Numbered from the stretch's first letter, positions 40,110 to 57,528 are shown. The stretch: DNA of 64,000 nt from Candidatus Moraniibacteriota bacterium (GCA_041583775.1 JBFHFF010000007.1:3382-67381); one strand, 5' to 3'. Notes: a model not told the origin generated them from the sequence alone. Program-made: numbers and translations.

Positions 40110-42752
40110 ATGAGTAAATTTGTTTTGGATGTAATAAAAAAATGGCAATTGGTTTTGTATATTTCGCTTATGTTAAGTGCGGTGACTTTTTTTGTATCCA
40201 CTGCAATTGCTCCAAAATATAGATCAGATATAACAGTTTTGATAACTCAGAAAGATGCGGATGTGCTAACGGCATCTCAAAATGCTGAATATTTGAGTGA
40301 TGTTTTTGAGAAAGTTCTTTATACGGAATCTTTTATGAGGGGTGTATTGAAGAGTGATGCTGAAATTAAAAGAGAATTTTCAGGGGATGCTAAGAAAAGA
40401 ATAAAAGAGTGGGCAGCTGAAATTCAAACAGAGAAAGTTGGGAGTTCTGGAATCTTAAAAATAGTTGTTTTTGATCCAAGAAGCGAAGATTCCTATAAGA
40501 TAGCAACAGGCATTGTTAATAATTTTAAAGAAAATAGAACTGAATATTTTGGAGAAAAAGATGAGGTTGAAATAAAAATTCTTGATGGGCCAATAAGTTC
40601 GTCAAAAGTTGCCTATCCAGATATAAAACTAAACACAGCTCTTGGTTTTTTTGTGGGGGTTATTGGATCTCTAATGATTATTTTGTTTTTTGAAGATTTT
40701 GATTTGAGACTCGTTAGGAAGTCTAAAAGAGGGATAGCTTTTTCGATAAAGTCTGCAGAGAAAGCAATTGAGCAAAAAATCGGCGATCAGTTGGTTCGAC
40801 AACTTGAAAAGAGAAAGGATAATGTAGCTTTGGAGTATCTAGAGAAACAGTTTGAGCGAGGTGATGATTTTGCGACATCAGAAAATCCTTCATTTATAGA
40901 TACATCCATAGATACATTGAATACATTGAAGCAAGATGTTGATAGTTCGAAAGAAATAGCGAAACAAAAAAATTCGATTATAAGTGAAGAGCTTGAATAT
41001 ATTGATATTCCAGAAGAGGATGATTTTGACAAGGAGGATGAGAAGTTTTTTTATTCTGCGCATAGCCAAGAAAGTGAAGTGGGTGAGTCTATTAATAAAT
41101 CAGAAATTGTGCTGAAGGGTTCTTTTAGTAATAGGGGGGCAATAAAAGATTTGGAAAATACCAAAGAAAAAGAAGTTGAAATTGTAGACACAAAAAAGAG
41201 TAGTGAAGATTTTTGGGAAAATATGCACTCAATAGATGGTGTGGAAGATGATTTAAAAGATGATCACAAGGACAATCCTTTATTAGCAGATTCTATGGTT
41301 GATATAGATAGGTATCATGAGATTATTCAAGCTGGAGAAACTTTTAAAGGCTTTAAAAGGCTTCGAGAGCAATATCAATCAAAAGATTCGAGTGAAACTG
41401 ATATTGAAAATAAAAAAATAGCTTTAAAAGAAGACTCTGAAAAAAAAGTTGATTTTGATGGTGAAAATGATGCTATCAAACAAGGAAGAGGAGAAGTTGT
41501 TGAATTGGAAAAAGAGTTGGATTTGCCAGAGCTTAAGAGAGGTGAGGAAGAAAAAGAGAGTGATGCAAAAAGAGAGATTGTTGCAAAGAAGGACGATAAA
41601 GAAACGCAAAAGGAGTTAGGACTAACAAAAAAAACGAAAGAGCAAGTAAAAGAAGAAGCCTTGGAATTAACTGCTGTTGGTTTGAAGAAGATTTTAGCAA
41701 CTCAAAATGTTGCACAACAAGAAGATGAGAGTGATGTTGTAGTGAAAGCGAAAGAAGATGAAGAACAAAATATTTTTAAAGAAAAAGATGTTGATGAGGA
41801 AATTCTACAAGTAGAATCTATGAGTCCGATTGGTGACATTGATGAAATCGAAGAAATAGGGGAAATAGTTGAAGAAAAAGAGTCTTTGGAGCCTTCCACT
41901 GAAAAAGAAGAAATTGAAGATGAAGAAGATTTTGAGGAAATCGTAGAGAAGAAGAAAAAGAAAGAAAAAGAGGAAATAGAAAGGTTATTGGAAGAGGAGA
42001 TAAAGAAAAATGTTCAGATAGAGCAAGAACTTGTTAGTAATAAAATCAAGAAAAAAGAGGAAGATATAATTAATCAAACAAACGAGCCTGAGGAAATAGA
42101 AAGCATTGATTATATTGGAAGTGCTGACGCTAACGAGGATGATGAATTGGAATTAAACACAAAAGAGATCCAGCGTTCAACTCAGGAGGGTTCTGAACAC
42201 GGGAATGCTTTTGCTAGGCTATATGAGAAATCTTTATTTAATGATGATAAATATAAAGAACAACAAGCTAAGAGAGTAACTCATCATATGGAAATGGACC
42301 CAGAAGAGTTGGAAATGATGCGGAAGATGTTGGAGGCCGAGGGAAAGAGCGAGGAGGAGTTTGTTTTGGAAAACGGGCTTGTTGAAATTGACGAGGAATC
42401 TGCAGAAAGTTTAAAAAAAGAGAATGTGAAGGATGTTGAGTTGAATGAAAAAATCTCAATAAAAAAATCAACTTTTGAACCAGTAGAGGAGTCTGTGAGG
42501 AAAATAGAGACGACAGAAGAATTGCAAATGGGGGATAAGAAAGGCGCTGCTCCCCACGGTTTGGCGATTTTTATGGAGGAAGAAGATGAGCAAGACACAT
42601 TTGCCAGAAATTTGCTCAAGGAAAAAGTTCAAAATAAAGGGAATGAGCAATTAAAGGGACAGGCTATTGATAAGATTATTGATCCCAATAAGGAAGTTTC
42701 GGAGGAAGAAATTAAAGATAGATTAAATAGGCTATTACAAGGGGAATTGTAA
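40110..42752 (+). CDS. Wzz/polysaccharide co-polymerase (chain-length determinant) domain protein with about 680-aa Glu/Lys/Asp-rich cytoplasmic tail
   Basis: TM1, periplasmic Wzz-like region (APKYRSDITVL...), TM2 GFFVGVIGSLMIILFF, then low-complexity acidic repeats to residue 880. Confidence 0.75.
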   Translation: MSKFVLDVIKKWQLVLYISLMLSAVTFFVSTAIAPKYRSDITVLITQKDADVLTASQNAEYLSDVFEKVLYTESFMRGVLKSDAEIKREFSGDAKKRIKEWAAEIQTEKVGSSGILKIVVFDPRSEDSYKIATGIVNNFKENRTEYFGEKDEVEIKILDGPISSSKVAYPDIKLNTALGFFVGVIGSLMIILFFEDFDLRLVRKSKRGIAFSIKSAEKAIEQKIGDQLVRQLEKRKDNVALEYLEKQFERGDDFATSENPSFIDTSIDTLNTLKQDVDSSKEIAKQKNSIISEELEYIDIPEEDDFDKEDEKFFYSAHSQESEVGESINKSEIVLKGSFSNRGAIKDLENTKEKEVEIVDTKKSSEDFWENMHSIDGVEDDLKDDHKDNPLLADSMVDIDRYHEIIQAGETFKGFKRLREQYQSKDSSETDIENKKIALKEDSEKKVDFDGENDAIKQGRGEVVELEKELDLPELKRGEEEKESDAKREIVAKKDDKETQKELGLTKKTKEQVKEEALELTAVGLKKILATQNVAQQEDESDVVVKAKEDEEQNIFKEKDVDEEILQVESMSPIGDIDEIEEIGEIVEEKESLEPSTEKEEIEDEEDFEEIVEKKKKKEKEEIERLLEEEIKKNVQIEQELVSNKIKKKEEDIINQTNEPEEIESIDYIGSADANEDDELELNTKEIQRSTQEGSEHGNAFARLYEKSLFNDDKYKEQQAKRVTHHMEMDPEELEMMRKMLEAEGKSEEEFVLENGLVEIDEESAESLKKENVKDVELNEKISIKKSTFEPVEESVRKIETTEELQMGDKKGAAPHGLAIFMEEEDEQDTFARNLLKEKVQNKGNEQLKGQAIDKIIDPNKEVSEEEIKDRLNRLLQGEL

Positions 42753-42844: not shown

Positions 42845-43516
42845 ATGGATTTAAAGTTTATTATCAGAAAAAGACAAACAATAATAGTAATTTCATTGAT
42901 TGCGTTACTTTTGGTGACTATTTTTACGCTTTTACAGCCTGTTAAATATAGCGCTAAGGCCAAAGTTTTGGTTGTGCAAAAATTCAATAAGGATGTTGAC
43001 TCATATGATATTGCAAGGTCAAAAGCTTATTTAGGTGAAATATTAGCAGAAGTTGTTACTACATATCCGATTTATGATCAAGTTGCAAAAAGTGAGTTTG
43101 GTGTTGATCGAGGGTATTTTGAAAAAAAACCAGAAATTGATAATGTTGTAAAAAAATGGAAAAAAACTGTTGATGCTTCAAGCTATGGCGATTCTGGAAT
43201 TATTGAAATTGTAGTAAAGCATTCAAATGCTAAACAAGCAGAGAATATTTCAAACGGAATTTTGGAAGTGCTTGCCAATAAGCATTCAAAATATCACAAT
43301 GGTGAGAATGTCAAATTAACAACAATTGATCCCCCAGTTATTGGATTGGCATCACCTAATATTAAACTGAATCTTATGATTGCTTTTTTTATGGGACTTT
43401 CTTTTGCTTTTATTTATATTGTGGTTTTCCCGGAGCCAGAACACGACTTGAATATTTTCAAAAAAAAGAAGAGTAATTTGCTTGAAATTAAAACGCTAAA
43501 AACACTTGACAAATAA
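42845..43516 (+). CDS. second Wzz/chain-length-determinant family protein (223 aa, CapA/YveK-like)
   Basis: TM1, QPVKYSAKAKVLV..., C-terminal TM LMIAFFMGLSFAFIYIVVF; TTGACA-17-TATTGT upstream at 42779-42807. Confidence 0.75.
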   Translation: MDLKFIIRKRQTIIVISLIALLLVTIFTLLQPVKYSAKAKVLVVQKFNKDVDSYDIARSKAYLGEILAEVVTTYPIYDQVAKSEFGVDRGYFEKKPEIDNVVKKWKKTVDASSYGDSGIIEIVVKHSNAKQAENISNGILEVLANKHSKYHNGENVKLTTIDPPVIGLASPNIKLNLMIAFFMGLSFAFIYIVVFPEPEHDLNIFKKKKSNLLEIKTLKTLDK

Positions 43517-43813
43517 TTTTTATTGTGCTAGATTTGCTTAGTTAGGAGATTTGACATTTTTTCATAGTCGTGTTGTACCCTTTGTTATATATGAAAAAAA
43601 GTTTAGAAAACAGAGACGAAGTGATATTAATTTTGTGTCCGAAAGATAATAAAAAAATTCGGATACAGAAACGATACTCGTTTCAAGTACCAAGTACTTT
43701 GATTTTTTTATAATCTTAACCGTTCGACAAGGAGGGCTAACGGACGCAGAAACAAAGAAAATGAAATAGACAACAGGGATTTCCTCTGTTGTCAAAAAAA
43801 CAAGGAGAAAAAA

Positions 43814-44467
43814 ATGACGACAAAAAAAGTTTTTTTAACAAGTTTCTTTATTTTTTTCATCGCATTGCCCGCATTTGCCTGCGAGGGACCTGAGTGTTCG
43901 GAGCCAGTGGTTCCGGACTTGTCGGAAGGTTGTATCGGCAGCTGTGATGGTGCAATTGCCATCGGGGCTGCAAATGGAGACGTCTTCGCAAATGTGAAGG
44001 TTGAGAGAGGGGATCTTTTCGCAGAAGCCTGCGGAGACTTGGAAATGGTCAATATGGCCGGAGCTCCAAGTGATGGTGTTGTATCGGTTGAAAATAAATT
44101 CGGCCGAACAGCGCTGGTGGAGAAGATATCACCGGATGGAAACACCGGTTTTCAGTTTGCGGAAGCAATTTCTGCGCAACTTAATTCGCAGGCTGAAAAC
44201 GGCGGATACACTGCCGGCGCAATTAAGGCCGAAAATACAGTTTCGGCAAATGGCAGCGCTGTCGCCTGGGAGAGAGGTGATTCTGTTGGGCTCAAAATGG
44301 ACCTTAACCAGGCCGTAAACTCAGCAGCGATGTTTTGCGCAGCTGACGGAACGACTGGAAGCCTTAACTCGGAAGTTATTGCAAATAGCTTCCAAAATAT
44401 TGAAACGGAAGCCATCACTGGCTTCCAGCAAAGTATGATATCAACAAAAATTGGTATCAACAAGTAG
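43814..44467 (+). CDS. secreted Cys-rich/Ala-Gly-rich hypothetical protein (island gene 1)
   Basis: Signal peptide MTTKKVFLTSFFIFFIALPAFA; CEGPECSEP...GCIGSCDG; SD AAGGAG. Confidence 0.7.
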   Translation: MTTKKVFLTSFFIFFIALPAFACEGPECSEPVVPDLSEGCIGSCDGAIAIGAANGDVFANVKVERGDLFAEACGDLEMVNMAGAPSDGVVSVENKFGRTALVEKISPDGNTGFQFAEAISAQLNSQAENGGYTAGAIKAENTVSANGSAVAWERGDSVGLKMDLNQAVNSAAMFCAADGTTGSLNSEVIANSFQNIETEAITGFQQSMISTKIGINK

Positions 44468-44493
44468 GAGGTGTAGGCCACAATAGGCCGATC

Positions 44494-44525
44494 AAAGCCC
44501 AGGAAATATTTTTTTCCTGGGCTTT
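44494..44525 (+). terminator. rho-independent terminator
   Basis: Perfect 13-bp stem AAAGCCCAGGAAA/TTTCCTGGGCTTT. Confidence 0.7.
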
Positions 44526-44651
44526 ATAACGAAAAATTAGTGAAATTTGAAAAAATAAGGCGAATAGAATGAAAACTTTTTCATCAGTAATTTGTAAAAA
44601 TAGGTGGCGAAATTATTTTCTTAATTGGGTATAGGAGTAATTAAAAAAGAC

Positions 44652-44680
44652 TTGACAAAAATAAAAAAAAAGTGTATAGT
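44652..44680 (+). promoter_or_regulatory. sigma70-like promoter TTGACA-17-TATAGT for island gene 2
   Basis: ttgaca 44652-44657, tatagt 44675-44680; about 170-nt leader with TGTGCAA-type inverted repeats. Confidence 0.55.
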
Positions 44681-44852
44681 TCTTAGAATGCTCTTTAAGA
44701 TAGTTTCTTATTAAAATAACCAAGTTCATCATTCATCGCATTGTGCAATGAGTGATGAATAGTTTATTTTGAGTATTTTGACAATTTAAAATTGCACATT
44801 TATTTGTGCAATAAAAAACAGTTCAGACGGAAGTCTGAACAAGGAGGAGAAT

Positions 44853-46178
44853 ATGGAAAAAATATGGATGTTAAGGTTAAGTTTGTTGTTGATGGTTCTG
44901 CTGTTTGGGTCTCAGGCTCAAGCGCAGACGAATTTTTCGGGAAATTCAAAGGTGTCGGTTGAAAATGACACCAGTAATTTTCTTAACACCCAGGTAGTTG
45001 CTGGGGGGGCCAATGTCTCAATTGACTTTGGAAGTGGAGAGGCTGGTGCTGACAAGTATCCAGGGGGATTATTGGGCGCTTATTATATGGGCGTTCCTGA
45101 AACTCCAAACATCCCCTTGCCACAGGCAAGCAAAGGTGGTTCTTGGAGGTTGCAGGCTGCAGATTTAGTATTTGCAGGTCTTCCGGCCGTGCTAACTCCT
45201 GATTCCATCAGGAGTTATGAGATGAATAAAACCATCCTTGTTGATGACAAGGATGATAAAAAGGAGCTTCGTGAGAAATTCGATAAGGCGAAGCGAAAGC
45301 TTCTTCTGAGTGCAAATGTTGTTTTGCCGGTAGTATTACCGGAAACCAACAGTATTCGTTTGAGTAAGAAGCTTCCGGCGCCCAATGGGATGCTTTTTGG
45401 AGAAAGTTATTCTCCAGCAGGCAACCTAACCTTTCATACAGTGGAAGAACTTGATGGATGGTTTCAGAAAGCGGATATGAAAAGTCTCTCTTCCGGTGAT
45501 CTTGCCGTTATGTTGGCAAGTGCCGGAATGAAGTGCGGAGCATCATTGATGGTCCCGACCGGCCAAGGTGCTGAAAATATATTCAACACAACGGCCGGAA
45601 GTAAGAGCTTGAGCGGACTGCTCTCAAGCGTTACAAATCTCGCAGGACAAAACGCTTTGCCGTCAGCAGTGTCTGCTGGCGGAGGAATTTCCGGGACTGA
45701 CGGTAACAACAATGTCGTCCATCAACCATATTTAACAGTCGCCTTGTTTAAAAAAGAGGCAGGACCTGTTAAAGGAAAACTTCAAAGAGATATTTTCTAT
45801 GAACTGGTAATGTGCGCATTGCCAGTTCCGGAGCCAAATGGAAGACTTCGATTAGAGGTGGCGAATCAGATGCTTCAGAAATATTTCGATTCCGGTCGGA
45901 ATAATGTGGAGCCACTGATTCATGCCCAGGCTAATTTAGCCCAATCCATCAAGGATGGAAAAAAGTCTCGAATCATAAAAGAGGCTTTGGCTGCCACCTG
46001 GGCTGAAAGAGTGATACTTGTGGGGCGCGGTTATAAGCAAGGACTTATGACTGAAAGAGAGTATAAAAACTCTCACCTACACAACCTTAAGAAGGCAGAA
46101 GGAGCAATGTCTTCTTATGGATTTAAGTCCATAAGAACGCTTGATCTCTGCGCAAAGGATTTGTCAAATCTAAAATAA
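44853..46178 (+). CDS. secreted 441-aa hypothetical protein (island gene 2)
   Basis: Signal peptide MEKIWMLRLSLLLMVLLFGSQAQA; SD AAGGAGG; no recognisable domain. Confidence 0.7.
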   Translation: MEKIWMLRLSLLLMVLLFGSQAQAQTNFSGNSKVSVENDTSNFLNTQVVAGGANVSIDFGSGEAGADKYPGGLLGAYYMGVPETPNIPLPQASKGGSWRLQAADLVFAGLPAVLTPDSIRSYEMNKTILVDDKDDKKELREKFDKAKRKLLLSANVVLPVVLPETNSIRLSKKLPAPNGMLFGESYSPAGNLTFHTVEELDGWFQKADMKSLSSGDLAVMLASAGMKCGASLMVPTGQGAENIFNTTAGSKSLSGLLSSVTNLAGQNALPSAVSAGGGISGTDGNNNVVHQPYLTVALFKKEAGPVKGKLQRDIFYELVMCALPVPEPNGRLRLEVANQMLQKYFDSGRNNVEPLIHAQANLAQSIKDGKKSRIIKEALAATWAERVILVGRGYKQGLMTEREYKNSHLHNLKKAEGAMSSYGFKSIRTLDLCAKDLSNLK

Positions 46179-46252
46179 CCGAAACAATTCCCGCCCAAAC
46201 TTCGGTTTTGGCGGGAACTAAAAAAACTCTTGAAAAAGAGGGAGGAGTCAAC

Positions 46253-47086
46253 ATGGCTATTAAAAGGATTGCTTTTTCATGTTTCGTCGTAGTAATTTTA
46301 TTTTCTCAGCAAATCGTTTCCGCGGAAACGATTTCGCTTGAGCAAATAAGGCAGAAGATCCAGGCAGCGCAAACTGCCGGAGTTTCAATGGTCAAAAGCT
46401 CTGATATAAAAAAAGAGCTTAAGAATAAAAAACCCAAATCACAATTTGGGATTGCCCTTAGTAATTTTGGGCAAATTCCTCTTAGTGTTTTAAGGTTGAA
46501 AAAGGGAGAGACAGTTTCTGAGCTTTCGGCAGTGGTTTCAAAGAAATCATTCCGAAGAGTAATGTCTGGGAACGGCCTCTCTCCCAGTAAGTGTGAAAAA
46601 TTGCCTGTGGGATTTGAACTTTATATCCCAACGGCATGGCTTTTGCCAAAGCTGAGACTGTCACCAGTCGAGATTGGTGTTCTCCAGGAAAGTCTTGCGT
46701 CTGCCAAAGAGGCAGCAGCAGACCTTACGGCGGAGGTTGGTCATTTAAAAGAGGAGATCGTCATTAAAGACGGTCAAATCTCTGAGTTGACAGGAAATCT
46801 TTTGGCTGAGCAGACCGCTCATGCCAAGACGAAGGAAGAGCTTTTGGCTGAGCAGACCGCTCATGCCAAAACGAAAGCCAATCTTTCGGCCCCGGCTTCG
46901 GTGGTCAAAGCCAAGCTTTCGGCTCCAGGAGGATTGGAATTTATGAATAATCCAATCTCTTGGATCGCAATAGCCTTCTTGGCTATTGCAGCAACAGCCT
47001 CTTTGGTCTTTTTGAAAAGAGGCAAAGGAAAAAAAAAGCCTGAGCAGCGCAGGACTGCTGATATAGCAGAGCCTGCAGTCAGCTAA
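46253..47086 (+). CDS. secreted LysM-like protein with tandem repeat and C-terminal TM anchor plus basic tail (island gene 3)
   Basis: Signal peptide MAIKRIAFSCFVVVILFSQQIVSA; LysM-like KKGETVSELSA...L.IP; 2x LLAEQTAHAKTK; C-terminal ISWIAIAFLAIAATASLVFL-KRGKGKKK; SD GGAGG. Confidence 0.7.
   Translation: MAIKRIAFSCFVVVILFSQQIVSAETISLEQIRQKIQAAQTAGVSMVKSSDIKKELKNKKPKSQFGIALSNFGQIPLSVLRLKKGETVSELSAVVSKKSFRRVMSGNGLSPSKCEKLPVGFELYIPTAWLLPKLRLSPVEIGVLQESLASAKEAAADLTAEVGHLKEEIVIKDGQISELTGNLLAEQTAHAKTKEELLAEQTAHAKTKANLSAPASVVKAKLSAPGGLEFMNNPISWIAIAFLAIAATASLVFLKRGKGKKKPEQRRTADIAEPAVS
46799..46882 (+). repeat. 2 x 42-bp in-frame tandem repeat inside island gene 3
   Basis: cttttggctgagcagaccgctcatgccaaRacgaaRg... 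repeated head-to-tail. Confidence 0.8.
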
Positions 47087-47107
47087 TAATGGTCCGGAAT
47101 CTCGGAC

Positions 47108-47145
47108 AAAAAGCGGTGGTACGCAATTTATGTACCACCGCTTTT
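47108..47145. terminator. bidirectional rho-independent terminator between convergent genes
   Basis: 14-bp stem AAAAGCGGTGGTAC/GTACCACCGCTTTT. Confidence 0.75.
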
Positions 47146-47232
47146 AATTTGCAAAAAATAAAAAATACTAACTAATTTAAAAAAAGATAGTAAATAATAT
47201 TAAAAATAATATGTTTTTGTTTAAAAGTTAAA

Positions 47233-48594
47233 TTAAATTCTATAGTTTTTTCTATTTGTTCTAATTGCTAAAAGTCCACCAGCTTCTGCCCAGAAAGCCC
47301 ATTGAAGTGCAGTTGCGTTAATGATGTTATCTCCAAAACTTGCTGCGTATAATCCTATTGTGAAACAAAGAAAAATCAAGAATAAAAAGGCTATTTCATC
47401 GTTGTTTTTTGATCTTGAGAGAAATTCTAATAACAATTCTTTTAATAGAGATAGAAAAATTATAATAAAAGCGACAAGACCAATTATTCCATTTCCTAGA
47501 AGAATTCTTAAAAAATCATTATGAGGGGCTGGAGAGCCAAGTCGAAGACCGCGTCTTTCTAGAATCAATTCCTCGGCAGTTCCAGTTCCATACCCCAATA
47601 TTGGAGCTTCTCTCGAATATACCAAAGCATCTTGCCATAAATTGAATCTCCAAGATATTGAACTGTATGGCGAAAGTGTTGTAATAGAATTTATTCGTTC
47701 ACGAATCGGAGAGATTATCAAATATACTGAAAAAAAAGCGATTATTGAAAAAAACAAAAGTTTTCGCAACTTCAACATTCCAGCACCAAGAATCATAAAA
47801 GCAAATAAAATCCACGCACCCCTAGTATAGGTCAATATCAGCAGGAAAAAGAATATTAAAAAAGAAGTTACATAGATCCATTTTTGGTAGTATTTATTTG
47901 TAAGAAGAAACATTTCAATTGAAAGTGCGATTGAAAGTGTTAATGAGAAAGCAAAGAGATTGGGATGTGCAAAGGTGCCAAAAAGTCTGTTGGGAATATC
48001 TTGATATGAAAGTGATAAGCCAGTGTTAGTTGTTAGCTGATAAAAAGCAACAAGTGAAGGGATTATCATTGAAGCAATTATGGTCACGGTTAACTCTAAT
48101 AAATCCTTTTTTGTTTTTATTGCAATAAAACCAAGGATAAAAAATGAAAAAATTGTTGAAACTCTTACAAGCTCTGAAATGCTGGAAGTTTTGTTGAAGG
48201 AAAATGAAATTCCAAAAATTAAGATAATAAGAAAAATCAACCATTGTTTTAGAAGTGGATTTTTCTTGAGTTTAGCGAGTTGGTTGGGTAATTTTAAAAC
48301 AGTTATTAGGATTAGCACTATGCCTAGAATTGAGGCAAGATTTATTGGATTGTTAAAAACCTTTAAAATAGTTATCTCTGAGGAAAAATCTAGGATTGGT
48401 CGTAACAATAATAATAAAAAAAACCCCCATTTTAAATCTATGAAAAAGACTAAAAATGTGAAAAAAATTCCAATGAGAAGAAGTGTGATAAGCAGTGGTG
48501 TCTTGAAAAAAGACAAAAACCCAACAAAAACAGTAATTGAAAGTATTGTGATGACGGCTAAAAGGTAGTTGTAGAAGTTTTTTTTACTTGACAT
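47233..48594 (-). CDS. O-antigen ligase/polymerase-like (Wzy/WaaL family) membrane protein
   Basis: About 12 TM; YTRGAWILFAFMILGAG segment typical of the Wzy_C domain. Confidence 0.65.
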   Translation of the reverse strand: MSSKKNFYNYLLAVITILSITVFVGFLSFFKTPLLITLLLIGIFFTFLVFFIDLKWGFFLLLLLRPILDFSSEITILKVFNNPINLASILGIVLILITVLKLPNQLAKLKKNPLLKQWLIFLIILIFGISFSFNKTSSISELVRVSTIFSFFILGFIAIKTKKDLLELTVTIIASMIIPSLVAFYQLTTNTGLSLSYQDIPNRLFGTFAHPNLFAFSLTLSIALSIEMFLLTNKYYQKWIYVTSFLIFFFLLILTYTRGAWILFAFMILGAGMLKLRKLLFFSIIAFFSVYLIISPIRERINSITTLSPYSSISWRFNLWQDALVYSREAPILGYGTGTAEELILERRGLRLGSPAPHNDFLRILLGNGIIGLVAFIIIFLSLLKELLLEFLSRSKNNDEIAFLFLIFLCFTIGLYAASFGDNIINATALQWAFWAEAGGLLAIRTNRKNYRI

Positions 48595-55930: not shown

Positions 55931-56004
55931 GGGGGCGTAGCTCAGCTGGTTAGAGCGATTGCCTGTCACGCAATAGGTCGCCGGTTCGAGTCCGGTCGTC
56001 CCCG
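55931..56004 (+). tRNA. tRNA-Asp (anticodon GUC)
   Basis: Hand-folded: acceptor GGGGGCG/CGTCCCC (one G-U), anticodon stem ATTGC/GCAAT, loop CTGTCAC, T-loop TTCGAGT. Confidence 0.85.
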
Positions 56005-57528
56005 CATACAGAAAACAGCACTCTTTGGAGATGCTTTTTTTGTTTTAGTTATGCCAAAAAAAGAAGGTTCGAAGGTTCGATTTATGGTGCTAAATCCTTG
56101 CATGTCTTCGTGAAGCCAATTGAAGGGTTCGGAGAGTACAAAACTAGTGATTTTTTGATTCTCTATGGTGACATTCGAGGATAGAATAGAGATGATCTCT
56201 TTTTTAATCTTTGGGGTTCCATTTTCGAAAATATCACGAGCAGATTTAACAAATTCTGCTATGAGCTCAATCTTTCCAACAATGTCCTTTTTGTGTGTTT
56301 TTACGTTTTGTAATTTCTCTTCGATTTCCGCTTCTTCACTTCGAAGCTCTGAAAGCCTGCGATTGTAGATTTCAGTTGGGATATAATTATCAATAAACTT
56401 TTCAACCAAGGAGTCTTGCTTTTGATTATTCTGTTTTAAGATTTCCGCAAGCTTTGTTTCTGATTCTTTTCTGTATTTCTGTTGTATAAGCCACTTTTCC
56501 TTTGTTGCAGAAACAATCAAATCCAAAACTTCTGCATCAAAATTGATATTTTGCAAAACGTCTCCAAAGGATAAAATCAATTCTTTCTCCCTTAGATATT
56601 TTTGGGAACAATTCTTTGCTCCTCGTGATTTTGTGCAATGATAATAAACATGACCTTTTTGTTTTTCCGCTGTAATTTTTAATCCACATTCTCCGCAAGT
56701 CATCAGCCCTCTGAAGACAAAGTTTTTTGATTCTTTTACGCTATGAAGATATTTGAAAGGGAAGAGTAGTTTTTGAACTTTCTCGAATTTACTTTTTGTA
56801 ATAATAGGCAAATGACTGCCTTTGTGAATTTGTTCTTTCCAACGGAATAGACCGCAATAAATCGGATTGTTTAGCATACCTTGAATCACTGTTTTTCCAA
56901 TCCTTTTATTTTTATTTGAGCGGAGTCCGTCGTTGTATAATTCATCAGCCAATTCTCTTATTGAAAATTTCTTTGAGCTATACAACTCAAAGGCTTTTTT
57001 GATATAAAAGCTCTTACTTTTATCAAGCTCTAATTTCTTGGTTTTTAGATTTCTGATGTATCCGATGGGAGCACAGCCAGGGTATTCGCCCCGGCGAATC
57101 TTTTCAGCCAAACCTCGTTTTACATTCTTGCTTAAATCTCGAATGTATTGATTCGCCATTCCAAACTCTATGCTTGCAATAACAACATTATCCTCGGGAT
57201 TATAATCCCGTTCAAAAGTTTTAATTCTGCCAATGATTTCTTTTTGAAGTAGCCACTTGATCAATCCTTCATCAACTGGGTTACGAGCCAGCCGATCAAT
57301 TTTCCAACACAAGACACCAACCTTTTTATTTTGCTTGATAAATTCAATCATCTCATTAAACACTGGCCTCCCAGGTTCTTTAGCTGATTTTGACTCTTGG
57401 AAAAGCTTGACCACATTTAACTTTTCCCGCTTAGCAATTTCTTTCATCTCAATGATTTGAGACTGGATTGAAAGAGCTTGGCGGTCTTCACTTTCTGTTG
57501 ATTTTCTCACATAGATTACATAGTCCAT
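55966..57528 (-). CDS. large serine recombinase/integrase; C-terminal about 12 aa are antisense read-through of the tRNA-Asp 3' end, so the true stop is uncertain
   Basis: N-terminal resolvase domain YVIYVRKSTESEDRQ (catalytic Ser), recombinase domain, Zn-ribbon CGECG...YYHC, coiled-coil. Confidence 0.85.
   Translation of the reverse strand: MDYVIYVRKSTESEDRQALSIQSQIIEMKEIAKREKLNVVKLFQESKSAKEPGRPVFNEMIEFIKQNKKVGVLCWKIDRLARNPVDEGLIKWLLQKEIIGRIKTFERDYNPEDNVVIASIEFGMANQYIRDLSKNVKRGLAEKIRRGEYPGCAPIGYIRNLKTKKLELDKSKSFYIKKAFELYSSKKFSIRELADELYNDGLRSNKNKRIGKTVIQGMLNNPIYCGLFRWKEQIHKGSHLPIITKSKFEKVQKLLFPFKYLHSVKESKNFVFRGLMTCGECGLKITAEKQKGHVYYHCTKSRGAKNCSQKYLREKELILSFGDVLQNINFDAEVLDLIVSATKEKWLIQQKYRKESETKLAEILKQNNQKQDSLVEKFIDNYIPTEIYNRRLSELRSEEAEIEEKLQNVKTHKKDIVGKIELIAEFVKSARDIFENGTPKIKKEIISILSSNVTIENQKITSFVLSEPFNWLHEDMQGFSTINRTFEPSFFGITKTKKASPKSAVFCMRGRPDSNRRPIA

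What the first reader, a model, noticed from the sequence alone, without database searches (positions are those of the whole stretch)
43700..47150. GC-rich, SD-rich three-gene island of secreted proteins inserted in the polysaccharide locus
Base composition jumps visibly, for example gcattgcccgcatttgcctgcgagggacctgagtgttcggagcc. All three ORFs have cleavable signal peptides and canonical AAGGAGG-type ribosome-binding sites, which most native genes in this window lack. The block is delimited by strong terminators and has its own TTGACA-17-TATAGT promoter. None of the three proteins has a recognisable enzymatic domain (Cys-rich/Ala-Gly-rich; a 441-aa orphan; a LysM-like repeat protein). A foreign secreted-protein cassette dropped into a cell-surface locus of a probable episymbiont is a plausible host- or partner-interaction module.
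Basis: partly seen in the sequence, partly recalled or inferred. Interest (0 to 1): 0.7.

Follow-up and report, generated by a model that had tools for sequence, protein, structure and literature searches.

The report
Conserved fast-evolving secreted-protein module, not an insertion
Three GC-rich genes for secreted proteins, each with a strong ribosome-binding site, stand out sharply from this AT-rich Patescibacteria genome, but they are not a recent foreign insertion: every relative found carries the same trio in the same slot of the cell-envelope locus, with the same odd composition and very divergent protein sequences.

Summary
The three ORFs (43814-44467, 44853-46178, 46253-47086) have GC3 of 0.42-0.45, against 0.256±0.033 in 47 other genes of the window (z 5-6). 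They are the only genes in 64 kb with a strong Shine-Dalgarno site. All three have Sec-type signal peptides, and the block carries its own promoters and stable hairpins.

Five other Patescibacteria lineages carry homologues of all three genes in the same slot, between a Wzz-like gene and a convergent Wzy_C gene. Their flanking proteins are 42-83% identical to the window's. In those lineages the GC excess is the same, and 19 of 19 module genes have an SD site against 1 of 55 flanking genes.

Flanking DNA and the intergenic leaders are conserved at 72-79%. The three proteins are only 33-40% identical between the closest relatives, whose flanking proteins are 75-83% identical. P1 and P2 are also saturated at synonymous sites.

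P3 is a divergent LysM, coiled-coil, membrane-anchored protein. P1 (Cys motifs) and P2 (α/β plus TPR-like domains) belong to tiny uncharacterised families.

Best reading: a resident, probably highly expressed, rapidly diversifying cell-surface module. Its function is inferred, not shown.

The parts
43506..43534 (+). Promoter-like site upstream of P1 (TTGACA-17-TAGATT, with TG before the -10). Its -35 box lies in the last codons of the Wzz-like gene.
   Evidence: 10 of 12 consensus positions. The TGTGCTA...T part is conserved in five lineages.
43620..43712 (+). Highly conserved non-coding block in the P1 leader. It contains three adjacent hairpins (43634-43667, 43668-43684, 43685-43699) followed by TTTTTTATAAT.
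   Evidence: Alignment A9 is near-invariant over about 100 nt in five lineages. Fold energy -22.2 kcal/mol, z -5.5. Flank-level DNA similarity to relatives runs up to 43719-43748.
43814..44467 (+). P1: a 217-aa secreted protein. Signal peptide (AFA|C), then C-x4-C and C-x3-C motifs near the N-terminus, two further conserved Cys, a Gly/Ala/Asn/Ser-rich body and a conserved C-terminal LGT-x-x-IN motif. SD site AAGGAG.
   Evidence: Family alignment A11. Only itself found among 5.8 billion protein clusters. Homologues recovered through synteny at 31-34% identity.
44494..44525 (+). Intrinsic-terminator-like hairpin after P1 (13-bp stem followed by UUUAU).
   Evidence: -21.7 kcal/mol, z -5.4. Conserved in five lineages.
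44652..44680 (+). Promoter-like site for P2-P3 (TTGACA-17-TATAGT). An A-tract lies upstream, and the same AAAAAnACTTGACAAA context occurs at the P1 promoter.
   Evidence: 11 of 12. Conserved in L004, L012 and L016, and displaced in L013. Repeat family D3.
44712..44771 (+). Conserved hairpin or inverted repeat of about 57 nt in the P2 leader, followed by an invariant TTGACAATTT (44778).
   Evidence: 24 pairs, 5 of them with compensatory changes. (93% of cells paired against 37-54% when slid; 13 of 500 shuffles reach the score). (-21.6 kcal/mol, z -6.0). This is the only DNA-conserved stretch inside the island.
44821..44840 (+). 8-bp hairpin immediately upstream of the P2 SD site.
   Evidence: -12.5 kcal/mol, z -5.7. 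Not conserved in sequence in relatives.
44853..46178 (+). P2: a 441-aa secreted protein. Signal peptide (AQA|Q), about 90 residues predicted disordered, an α/β domain (about 110-245 and 294-301) and a C-terminal helical TPR-like domain (about 326-440). SD site AAGGAGG.
   Evidence: AF2 model with a 14-sequence alignment, pLDDT 66 overall and 75-95 in the domains. Family of only 15 representatives among 1.84 billion.
46188..46217 (+). Stable hairpin with a UUCG loop between P2 and P3. It has no U-tract, so it is probably an mRNA-stabilising or processing element in a P2-P3 transcript.
   Evidence: -18.2 kcal/mol, z -4.0. A hairpin with the same loop but a different stem sequence lies upstream of P3 in L012.
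46253..47086 (+). P3: a 277-aa type-I membrane protein. Signal peptide (VSA|E), a LysM-like module (about residues 80-126), a coiled-coil stalk with a 14-aa tandem duplication, a C-terminal TM helix (234-256) and a basic tail. SD site GGGAGGAG. The start is the ATG at 46253, not the TTG at 46208.
   Evidence: repeat family D1. LysM evidence.
47109..47145 (.). Perfect 14-bp stem flanked by A and U runs. It would act as a bidirectional terminator shared by P3 (+) and the convergent Wzy_C gene (-). Flank-level DNA similarity to relatives resumes here.
   Evidence: -23.9 kcal/mol, z -6.7. (I10). (similarity resumes at 47104).
42845..43516 (+). Context, upstream border of the slot: a 223-aa Wzz-like chain-length-determinant paralogue.
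   Evidence: Pfam Wzz E 9e-5, 23.1 bits, just below the 25.5 cut-off. 83/74/72/62/45% identical in relatives.
47233..48594 (-). Context, downstream border of the slot: a 453-aa Wzy_C-domain protein of the O-antigen ligase/polymerase/O-oligosaccharyltransferase family.
   Evidence: Pfam PF04932 E 2.6e-19. 76/70/67/44% identical in relatives.

Best explanation
The block is a resident, vertically maintained cell-envelope module of this Patescibacteria lineage. It has three parts and is not a newly inserted island.

Transcription (inferred). P1 appears to be transcribed alone, from a consensus-like promoter through a conserved structured leader of about 270 nt to its own terminator. P2 and P3 appear to be co-transcribed, from a second near-consensus promoter through a leader of about 165 nt that carries a conserved long hairpin. 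A UUCG hairpin lies between the two genes. The transcript would end at a strong terminator shared with the convergent Wzy_C gene.

Export and architecture (inferred from sequence features). All three products have Sec signal peptides with signal-peptidase-I sites. P3 would stay in the membrane through its C-terminal helix. It would project a coiled-coil stalk and a divergent LysM module, which is expected to bind peptidoglycan or GlcNAc-type glycan. P2 has a disordered N-terminal segment, an α/β domain and a TPR-like helical domain, and is proposed as an adaptor or scaffold. P1 has N-terminal disulfide-type Cys motifs and a Gly/Ala/Asn/Ser-rich body, and is proposed as the exposed component. 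The neighbouring Wzz / Wzy_C / GT4 genes make the glycan that this complex binds or that decorates it.

Expression and evolution. Near-consensus promoters, structured leaders, canonical SD sites in a genome that otherwise lacks them, and strong terminators point to high and stable expression, as is known for S-layer and other major surface-protein genes. The proteins evolve far faster than their neighbours, as expected for a surface exposed to phage or to a host or partner cell.

Composition. The GC-rich, SD-led signature is a conserved property of the module in almost every carrier. It is not a scar of recent transfer. What maintains it is unknown.

Shown here: the composition, the SD sites, the synteny, the divergence, the LysM-like similarity and the RNA hairpins. 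Inferred: transcription units, expression level, assembly of the three proteins, their location and their function.
For: Same slot and homologous trio in five other lineages.

The trio also occurs in more distant, GC-richer contigs, next to Wzz (L020), sortase and PMT_2 (L021/L022), or MreB/MreC/PBP2 (L023).

SD core present in 19 of 19 module genes against 1 of 55 flanking genes in six lineages, Fisher p = 9e-17.

Module GC3 exceeds flank GC3 in 8 of 9 carriers, by +0.05 to +0.16, including hosts with flanks at about 46% GC.

Flank DNA similarity runs to 43719-43748 and resumes at 47104. The P1-P2 intergenic region is 72-79% identical in five lineages, while the coding regions are undetectable at the DNA level. 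Promoters, leaders and the P1 terminator are conserved.

Island proteins are 33-40% identical between window and L004. The Wzz223, Wzy_C and two GT4 flanking proteins are 75-83% identical; the long Wzz-like protein is 58%.

P3 and LysM: Pfam LysM hits 3 of 10 family members, best E 1.7e-6. The family profile against the MltD LysM domain gives E 5e-5 over window residues 80-123. The G, N, G and P positions are invariant or nearly so. TM helix at 234-256.

Signal peptides. Hairpin stabilities. Leader hairpin covariation.

The module is identical in independent samples of the same organism. This argues against an assembly artefact and against hypermutation within a population.
Against: No expression or localisation data exist. 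The roles of P1 and P2 are guesses.

Ribosomal-protein and RNA-polymerase genes in the same window show neither high GC3 nor SD sites. High expression alone therefore does not explain the signature.

P1 and P2 show no residual synonymous similarity between window and L004 (-0.05 and -0.04). The flanks show +0.08 to +0.20. In addition, the window's P1 and P2 are outliers even though its flanks are closest to L004. Both points fit allele replacement at least as well as in-place fast evolution.

Only six AT-rich lineages were available.
Confidence: 0.55

Rival explanations
1. Resident slot with recurrently replaced content. The regulatory framework and the flanks are inherited vertically. The coding cassettes, at least P1 and P2, are swapped by homologous recombination with divergent alleles from other Patescibacteria, many of which are GC-richer. 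The GC/SD signature and the extreme divergence would then reflect a shared laterally moving gene pool. This is comparable to O-antigen or capsule loci that are exchanged between conserved flanks.
For: P1 and P2 are saturated at synonymous sites although the flanks are not.

Relationships are incongruent. The window's flanks are closest to L004, but its P1 and P2 fall outside the L004/L012/L013/L016 group, and its P2 is closest to an unlinked metagenomic protein, P0002, at 48%.

The window has both the most divergent alleles and the largest GC3 excess, while L016 has the smallest.

The module exists in contigs of 47-50% GC, where its own GC is 0.48-0.55.

Each gene carries its own promoter or SD site and terminator, so a cassette would be expressed wherever it lands.
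Against: The P1-P2 intergenic region and the leaders are conserved at flank-like identity. A whole-block swap therefore needs a donor with the same leaders, or crossovers inside short conserved stretches.

P3 keeps a synonymous excess of +0.09 and its nearest relatives follow the flank order.

The module is GC-richer than its flanks even where the flanks are about 46% GC. That points to a cause intrinsic to the genes.

No donor closer than 48% identity was found among 1.84 billion representatives. No mobility genes or repeats are present.
Confidence: 0.27
2. One reading: a recently acquired foreign genomic island, inserted into the polysaccharide locus of this particular genome.
For: Strong GC, GC3, codon and tetranucleotide anomaly with sharp borders. 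SD sites unlike native genes. The proteins look like orphans in word-indexed searches.
Against: The homologous trio sits in the same slot, with the same anomaly, in five other lineages whose flanking proteins are 42-83% identical. The intergenic DNA inside the block is as conserved as the flanks. There is no integrase, no att-like repeat and no adjacent tRNA. No matches in viral contigs, PHROGs or BFVD.
Confidence: 0.05
3. Targeted hypermutation, such as a diversity-generating retroelement or phase variation, drives the divergence of the three genes.
For: Extreme protein divergence confined to the coding regions, next to conserved non-coding DNA.
Against: No template/variable repeat pair in or around the block. 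The only sizeable repeat is a 42-nt tandem duplication inside P3. No reverse transcriptase appears among the genes called from about 34.9 to 56.2 kb. The module is 100% identical in independent samples of the same organism, for the window and for L013/L024/L025.
Confidence: 0.03

Closest known systems
S-layer and major surface (glyco)protein genes lying next to their glycosylation cluster. From general knowledge: Geobacillus stearothermophilus sgsE with the slg cluster including the Wzy_C-type O-oligosaccharyltransferase WsaB, and Tannerella forsythia tfsA/tfsB. Reviews: PMC4232325, PMC6120980.
   Same: Exported proteins encoded beside Wzz / Wzy_C / glycosyltransferase genes. Near-consensus promoters, long structured 5' leaders and strong terminators. 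Very low sequence conservation between related organisms.
   Different: No SLH, CWB2 or other known S-layer anchoring domain, and no Ig- or β-rich lattice fold is predicted. The proteins are small (217-441 aa). Abundance, lattice formation and glycosylation were not tested. Membership is not claimed.
LysM-domain (PF01476) cell-wall-binding proteins
   Same: P3 has one module of about 45 residues with the LysM pattern (h-x-h-x-x-G-x-T ... N-x-h ... G-x-x-h-x-h-P). It matches LysM at profile level, and three family members match at Pfam level.
   Different: The window protein itself gives no Pfam LysM hit at E ≤ 1. The module has a 6-10 residue insertion. The architecture of signal peptide, LysM, coiled coil and C-terminal TM anchor was not matched to any curated family.
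Horizontally acquired genomic islands, defined by atypical composition
   Same: Sharp GC, codon-usage and oligonucleotide anomaly. Self-contained expression signals.
   Different: No mobility genes, att repeats or tRNA target. Present at the same site in all relatives found. The anomaly recurs in nearly every carrier.
Hypervariable surface-polysaccharide loci exchanged between conserved flanks, such as O-antigen clusters between galF and gnd or pneumococcal cps between dexB and aliA. These are known for atypical GC (general knowledge).
   Same: A conserved slot in an envelope locus whose content is far more divergent than the flanks and compositionally atypical. There are hints of phylogenetic incongruence.
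   Different: The variable content here is three secreted proteins, not sugar-pathway genes. The GC deviation is upward. The non-coding DNA inside the block is conserved. Exchange has not been demonstrated.

Membership tests
Recently acquired genomic island (HGT) | Composition differs from the host genome | tested here: met
   GC3 z = 4.9-6.0. Expected GC3 0.255 against 0.428 observed. Tetranucleotide distance peaks on the island.
Recently acquired genomic island (HGT) | Absent from the same site in related genomes | tested here: not met
   The trio is present between the Wzz-like and Wzy_C genes in L004, L005, L012, L013 (= L024/L025) and L016/L017. No empty site was found.
Recently acquired genomic island (HGT) | Mobility hallmarks: integrase or transposase, flanking direct repeats, a tRNA target | tested here: not met
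   No att-like repeats. The tRNAs are at 11 kb and 55.9 kb only. The neighbouring genes are envelope genes.
LysM domain (PF01476), for P3 | Significant match to the LysM profile | tested here: inconclusive
   Window P3: no Pfam hit at E ≤ 1. 3 of 10 aligned family members hit LysM, best E 1.7e-6. Family profile against the MltD LysM domain: hhalign E 5e-5, probability 68%, window residues 80-123.
LysM domain (PF01476), for P3 | Binds peptidoglycan or chitin-type GlcNAc glycans | not testable with these tools
   Needs a binding assay with the purified ectodomain.
Sec-exported proteins with signal-peptidase-I sites (P1, P2, P3) | Positive n-region, hydrophobic h-region, and small residues at -3 and -1 | tested here: met
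   Heuristic scan: two K/R residues each; hydrophobic cores with Kyte-Doolittle 2.5-3.1; AFA, AQA and VSA sites. The pattern is conserved in homologues. SignalP was not available.
S-layer protein with adjacent glycosylation cluster | Known S-layer or cell-wall anchoring domain (SLH, CWB2 and similar), or a lattice-forming fold | tested here: not met
   No Pfam or NCBIfam domain. The P2 model gives only TPR-like helical matches.
S-layer protein with adjacent glycosylation cluster | Lies next to Wzy_C-type transferase and glycosyltransferase genes | tested here: met
   Two Wzy_C genes, three GT4 genes and Wzz-like genes flank the block.
S-layer protein with adjacent glycosylation cluster | Most abundant cell protein; forms a 2-D lattice | not testable with these tools
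   Needs proteomics and cryo-electron tomography.
Diversity-generating retroelement target | Reverse transcriptase plus a template/variable repeat pair nearby | tested here: not met
   No such repeats. No RT among the genes called from about 34.9 to 56.2 kb. Alleles are identical across samples.
Phage-derived or defence cassette | Match to phage or defence protein families, or to viral contigs | tested here: not met
   PHROGs: only E ≥ 0.12. PADLOC: none. IMG/VR scan with P2: none. BFVD fold search: E ≥ 0.18.

The most novel reading that the evidence does not exclude
In these Patescibacteria, which otherwise hardly use Shine-Dalgarno sites, the P1-P2-P3 trio is a self-contained 'plug-and-play' surface cassette. 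Its GC-rich coding sequence, canonical SD sites, own promoters, structured leaders and terminators would be kept by selection. One possible reason is that the genes are translated under a separate SD-dependent regime at very high level, as the cell's main surface or host-contact structure. Another is that the cassettes are exchanged between lineages through the conserved non-coding blocks, which would act as homology arms. Either way, the trio would be the first sequence handle on the surface apparatus of this uncultivated group.
Probability: 0.2. Interest if true: 0.75.

Novelty: new variant of a known kind. Interest (0 to 1): 0.5.

Why it matters
Patescibacteria (the CPR) are ultra-small, mostly uncultivated bacteria thought to live attached to other cells, and the proteins that make up their surface are largely unknown. 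This work defines a conserved three-gene module of exported proteins with no described family. Every database copy examined is named 'hypothetical protein', and P2 has only 15 relatives among 1.84 billion representatives. The module has a recognisable signature: its position in the envelope-glycan locus, a LysM-like anchor, Cys-motif N-termini, 19 of 19 SD sites against 1 of 55, and excess GC3. That signature makes it a concrete candidate for expression, localisation and binding studies. It is also a cautionary case: a textbook-looking compositional 'island' that is not a recent transfer. Finally, it raises an open question: what keeps GC3 and SD sites high in three fast-evolving genes of an AT-rich genome that otherwise lacks SD sites?

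Tried and rejected
Word-indexed protein searches found only self-matches for P1 and P3, and one 48% relative for P2 on 1.4-kb contigs without context. The homologues were recovered through synteny and through an exhaustive HMMER profile search.

AF2 on a two-sequence alignment was useless, with pLDDT 37. The 14-row run gave pLDDT 66. No structure jobs remained for P1 or P3.

Pfam, NCBIfam, PHROGs and PADLOC gave nothing for the window proteins. Rfam found nothing in the block except a chance miRNA hit at E 0.21.

The viral-contig scan with P2 gave nothing. No further lineages and no empty site were obtained.

A search for att-like or DGR-like repeats gave none.

A second 'TTGACA' at 44778 was considered as a promoter and rejected, because no -10 element is conserved downstream of it. 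G·U against C·A mismatch counts do not show which strand of the leader hairpin matters.

P1 as a lipoprotein was rejected. Only L012 has a proper LAGC lipobox. Several homologues have Asp or Thr between the AxA site and the first Cys.

Literature searches found no description of this module.

Full report
1. WHAT IS AT THE COORDINATES

The region 43.7-47.15 kb holds three same-strand ORFs:
- P1, 43814-44467, 217 aa.
- P2, 44853-46178, 441 aa.
- P3, 46253-47086, 277 aa. The ATG at 46253 follows GGGAGGAG and is the likely start. The TTG at 46208 is not.

Upstream lie two Wzz-like genes of 880 and 223 aa. Downstream lie a convergent Wzy_C gene, three GT4 glycosyltransferase genes, a GINT1_N-like gene and a second Wzy_C gene.

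Composition:
- In 200-nt windows GC climbs from about 0.30 to 0.46-0.53 inside each ORF and drops to about 0.26 in the spacers.
- Gene by gene, GC3 is 0.454, 0.419 and 0.421. The 47 other genes of the window have 0.256±0.033 (maximum 0.344), so z = 4.9-6.0.
- With the window's own codon preferences the island's amino-acid sequence would give GC3 of 0.255. The observed value is 0.428.
- The shift affects almost every amino acid and both G- and C-ending codons. It is therefore not the NNC-type bias expected from translational selection.
- The tetranucleotide distance from the window average is highest on the island.

Expression signals:
- The three genes carry AAGGAG, AAGGAGG and GGGAGGAG at the correct spacing from the start codon. 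None of about 48 other genes matches more than 5 nt of the SD consensus.
- All three proteins have a basic n-region, a hydrophobic core and an AxA-type site at about residues 20-24. P3 also has a C-terminal TM helix at 234-256 (a heuristic check, since SignalP was not available).
- The promoter TTGACA-17-TATAGT (44652-44680) is the best consensus match in the region. A second promoter-like site (43506-43534) precedes P1.
- Stable hairpins follow P1 (-21.7 kcal/mol) and P3 (-23.9 kcal/mol). The hairpin between P2 and P3 has a UUCG loop and no U-tract, so P2 and P3 are probably one transcript.

Other checks:
- No Pfam, NCBIfam, PHROG or PADLOC family matches any of the three proteins.
- An independent assembly is 100% identical over 21 kb, so this is not a chimera.

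3. IT IS NOT A ONE-OFF INSERTION

A scan of species-representative genomes with the downstream GT4 protein found two relatives: a Candidatus Moraniibacteriota MAG (L004, GT4 79% identical) and a more distant Patescibacteria MAG (L005, 50%). An exhaustive profile search with P2, followed by contig look-ups, added L012, L013 and L016/L017. L013 is the same organism as L024 and L025.

In every one of these lineages, the slot between the 223-aa Wzz-like gene and the convergent Wzy_C gene holds a P1-like, a P2-like and a P3-like gene. L012 and L013 also have an acetyltransferase gene in the slot. L005 also has a lipoprotein gene.

The signature travels with the genes:
- Module GC is 0.42-0.46 and flank GC is 0.34-0.37.
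- Module GC3 exceeds flank GC3 by +0.05 to +0.16.
- A ≥5-nt SD core precedes 19 of 19 module genes but only 1 of 55 flanking genes (Fisher p = 9e-17).

No empty-site relative, integrase, att-like repeat or adjacent tRNA was found.

4. WIDER DISTRIBUTION

The P2 family is tiny, with 15 representatives at E < 1e-3 among 1.84 billion proteins. The distant members again sit in a trio: a small protein with a signal peptide and an N-terminal Cys motif, then P2, then a P3-like protein that in two cases carries a precomputed weak or faint LysM hit. Their neighbours are Wzz (L020), sortase and PMT_2 glycosyltransferases (L021/L022), or MreB/MreC/PBP2 (L023).

These contigs are 47-50% GC. The module is GC-richer than its flanks in L020 and L021 but not in L023. 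The positive GC offset therefore recurs in 8 of 9 carriers. That looks like a property of the genes rather than a memory of one donor.

5. A CONSERVED FRAME WITH HYPERDIVERGENT CODING REGIONS

BLASTN of the window against the relatives shows the following:
- Flank-level similarity (68-75%) runs through the Wzz-like gene and on through the non-coding DNA to 43719-43748.
- It disappears over P1.
- It reappears only in the P1-P2 spacer (44610-44815, 72-79% in five lineages).
- It disappears over P2 and P3.
- Against L004 it resumes at 47104, which is the terminator.

Alignments of the spacers show these conserved elements:
- the P1 terminator;
- the P2 promoter;
- a hairpin or inverted repeat of about 57 nt (44712-44771), with 5 compensatory pairs among 24 and 93% of cells paired against 37-54% when the partners are slid;
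- an invariant TTGACAATTT;
- upstream of P1, a near-invariant block of about 100 nt that folds into three hairpins.

Between the window and L004 the proteins compare as follows:
- Flanks: Wzz223 83%, Wzy_C 76%, GT4 79% and 75%.
- Module: P1 34%, P2 40%, P3 36%.

The module is identical in independent samples of the same organism. The variation is therefore between lineages and not within populations. No DGR-type repeats or reverse transcriptase are present.

6. FAST EVOLUTION IN PLACE, OR ALLELE REPLACEMENT?

Two results go beyond simple fast protein evolution.

First, the flanks group the window with L004. The window's P1 and P2, however, fall outside the L004/L012/L013/L016 group. The window's values against these lineages are 31-34% for P1 and 33-40% for P2, while the group members are 40-54% (P1) and 38-50% (P2) identical to each other. 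The window's P2 is closest to an unlinked metagenomic protein, P0002, at 48%.

Second, at amino-acid positions conserved between the window and L004, codon identity was compared with the codon-usage expectation:
- The flanks exceed the expectation by +0.08 to +0.20.
- P1 (-0.05) and P2 (-0.04) do not exceed it.
- P3 exceeds it by +0.09.

The P1 and P2 alleles are thus older than the flanks, or they mutate faster. This fits replacement by divergent alleles. So does the fact that the window has both the most divergent alleles and the largest GC3 excess.

Against wholesale swapping stand the conserved intergenic DNA, the vertical-looking P3, the lack of any donor closer than 48%, and the GC offset seen even in GC-richer hosts. 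I therefore keep 'resident module, evolving fast' as the main reading (0.55) and 'resident slot with recurrent allele replacement' as the serious rival (0.27). The recent-island reading is given 0.05.

7. WHAT THE PROTEINS LOOK LIKE

P3:
- Ten homologues align around an invariant Asn107 and nearly invariant Gly85, Gly120 and Pro126, in a LysM-like pattern.
- Three of the ten hit Pfam LysM, best E 1.7e-6.
- The family profile matches the MltD LysM domain at E 5e-5 over window residues 80-123.
- The window protein alone does not reach Pfam significance.
- A coiled-coil segment follows, containing a 42-nt tandem duplication at 46799-46882. After it come a TM helix and a basic tail.

P2:
- The 14-sequence AF2 model (pLDDT 66 overall, 75-95 in the domains) shows a disordered N-terminal segment of about 90 residues, an α/β domain and a C-terminal helical repeat domain.
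- The near-invariant residues are Thr115, Gly229, Cys321, Asn329 and Arg333. They do not form a recognisable catalytic set.

P1:
- After the signal peptide come C-x(2-5)-C and C-x(3-4)-C motifs and two further conserved Cys residues.
- An MAGAP motif and a conserved C-terminal LGT-x-x-IN motif are also present.
- The same N-terminal C-x-x-x-x-C motif occurs in some P2 family members.

8. MECHANISM PROPOSED (INFERRED)

P3 anchors in the membrane and reaches the wall through its stalk and LysM-like module. P2 acts as a scaffold, and P1 is the exposed variable component. The neighbouring Wzz / Wzy_C / GT4 genes provide the glycan that is bound or attached.

Near-consensus promoters, long structured leaders, SD sites and strong terminators argue for abundant, stable transcripts, as is known for S-layer and other major surface-protein genes (review PMC4232325). 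The divergence pattern argues for selection at an exposed surface. None of this has been shown experimentally.

The cause of the persistently high GC3 remains open. Candidates are selection on the mRNA, biased gene conversion at a recombination-prone locus, or repeated import of alleles. High expression alone does not explain it, because the ribosomal-protein and RNA-polymerase genes in the same window have low GC3 and no SD sites.

9. COMPARISON WITH WHAT IS KNOWN, AND VERDICT

The module works like a major surface-protein locus embedded in its glycan cluster. Its evolutionary pattern recalls hypervariable O-antigen or capsule loci. It fails the membership tests for a recent genomic island, a phage or defence cassette, a DGR target and a known S-layer family. 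Only P3 can be tied, at profile level, to a known domain (LysM).

All database copies examined are 'hypothetical protein', and literature searches found no description of the module.

The 'foreign insert' interpretation is largely wrong. What is there is an undescribed, conserved, fast-evolving secreted-protein module with an unexplained conserved GC/SD signature. I rate it a new variant of a known kind, with interest 0.5.

Noticed in passing
window 55931-57528: A 520-aa large serine recombinase (Resolvase + Recombinase + Zn_ribbon_recom, minus strand) overlaps the 3' half of tRNA-Asp (55931-56005). DNA similarity to L004 and L005 is about 95% over the tRNA region and stops at 56000. An element integrated at tRNA-Asp probably starts there. 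No attR copy of the tRNA end was found up to 64000.
   Followed up: partly
window 1-64000 (all genes except 43814-47086): Native genes essentially lack Shine-Dalgarno sites. None of about 48 genes matches more than 5 nt of the SD consensus, including the putative ribosomal-protein and RNA-polymerase genes (assigned from position and size only). Their upstream regions are A/T-rich. The same is true of flanking genes in five related lineages (1 of 55 with an SD core). The 16S rRNA 3' end could not be checked because the window has no rRNA.
   Followed up: partly
window 43620-43712: A non-coding block of about 100 nt upstream of P1 is nearly invariant in five lineages and is more conserved than the neighbouring protein genes. 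It folds into three adjacent hairpins (-22.2 kcal/mol, z -5.5). It has no Rfam match. It could be a leader or regulatory RNA, or a protein-binding region.
   Followed up: partly
window 43722-43747: An SD-like AAGGAGGG lies inside a small hairpin (aaccgtt...aacgg) about 80 nt upstream of the P1 start, and is conserved in L004 and L012. It is followed by a two-codon mini-ORF (ATG AAA TAG at 43762-43770). This could be a sequestered or decoy ribosome-binding site.
   Followed up: no
window 40110-42752: The 880-aa Wzz-like protein consists of an N-terminal Wzz-type segment, a very long, highly acidic Glu/Lys/Asp-rich low-complexity region and a conserved C-terminus. Its length varies from 487 to 988 aa in relatives, and it is only 35-59% identical between them.
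   Followed up: partly
L012 10587-11648; L013 10803-11861; L005 4205-4714; L020 2350-2919: The slot is not fixed in content. L012 and L013 have an extra Acetyltransf_6 gene between P3 and Wzy_C, with ordinary GC and no SD site. L005 and L020 have an extra small lipoprotein gene between P1 and P2, with an SD site and intermediate GC.
   Followed up: partly
P0002, P0012, P0016, P0017 (N-termini); window 43880-43900: The N-terminal motif 'A-C-x(2-5)-C-[ST]-x-P', found just after the signal peptide of P1, also occurs at the mature N-terminus of several P2-family proteins. It may be a shared sorting, disulfide or metal-binding tag.
   Followed up: no
window 46799-46882: A 42-nt tandem duplication (86% identical) inside the coiled-coil part of P3 encodes LLAEQTAHAKTK twice.
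   Followed up: yes
window 44853 vs 44868: The public gene call for P2 (P0001, 436 aa) starts five codons downstream of the ATG that sits at the proper distance from the AAGGAGG site. A 441-aa version (P0018) also exists in the database. Likewise, P3 is recorded both as 292 aa (TTG start) and as 277 aa.
   Followed up: yes
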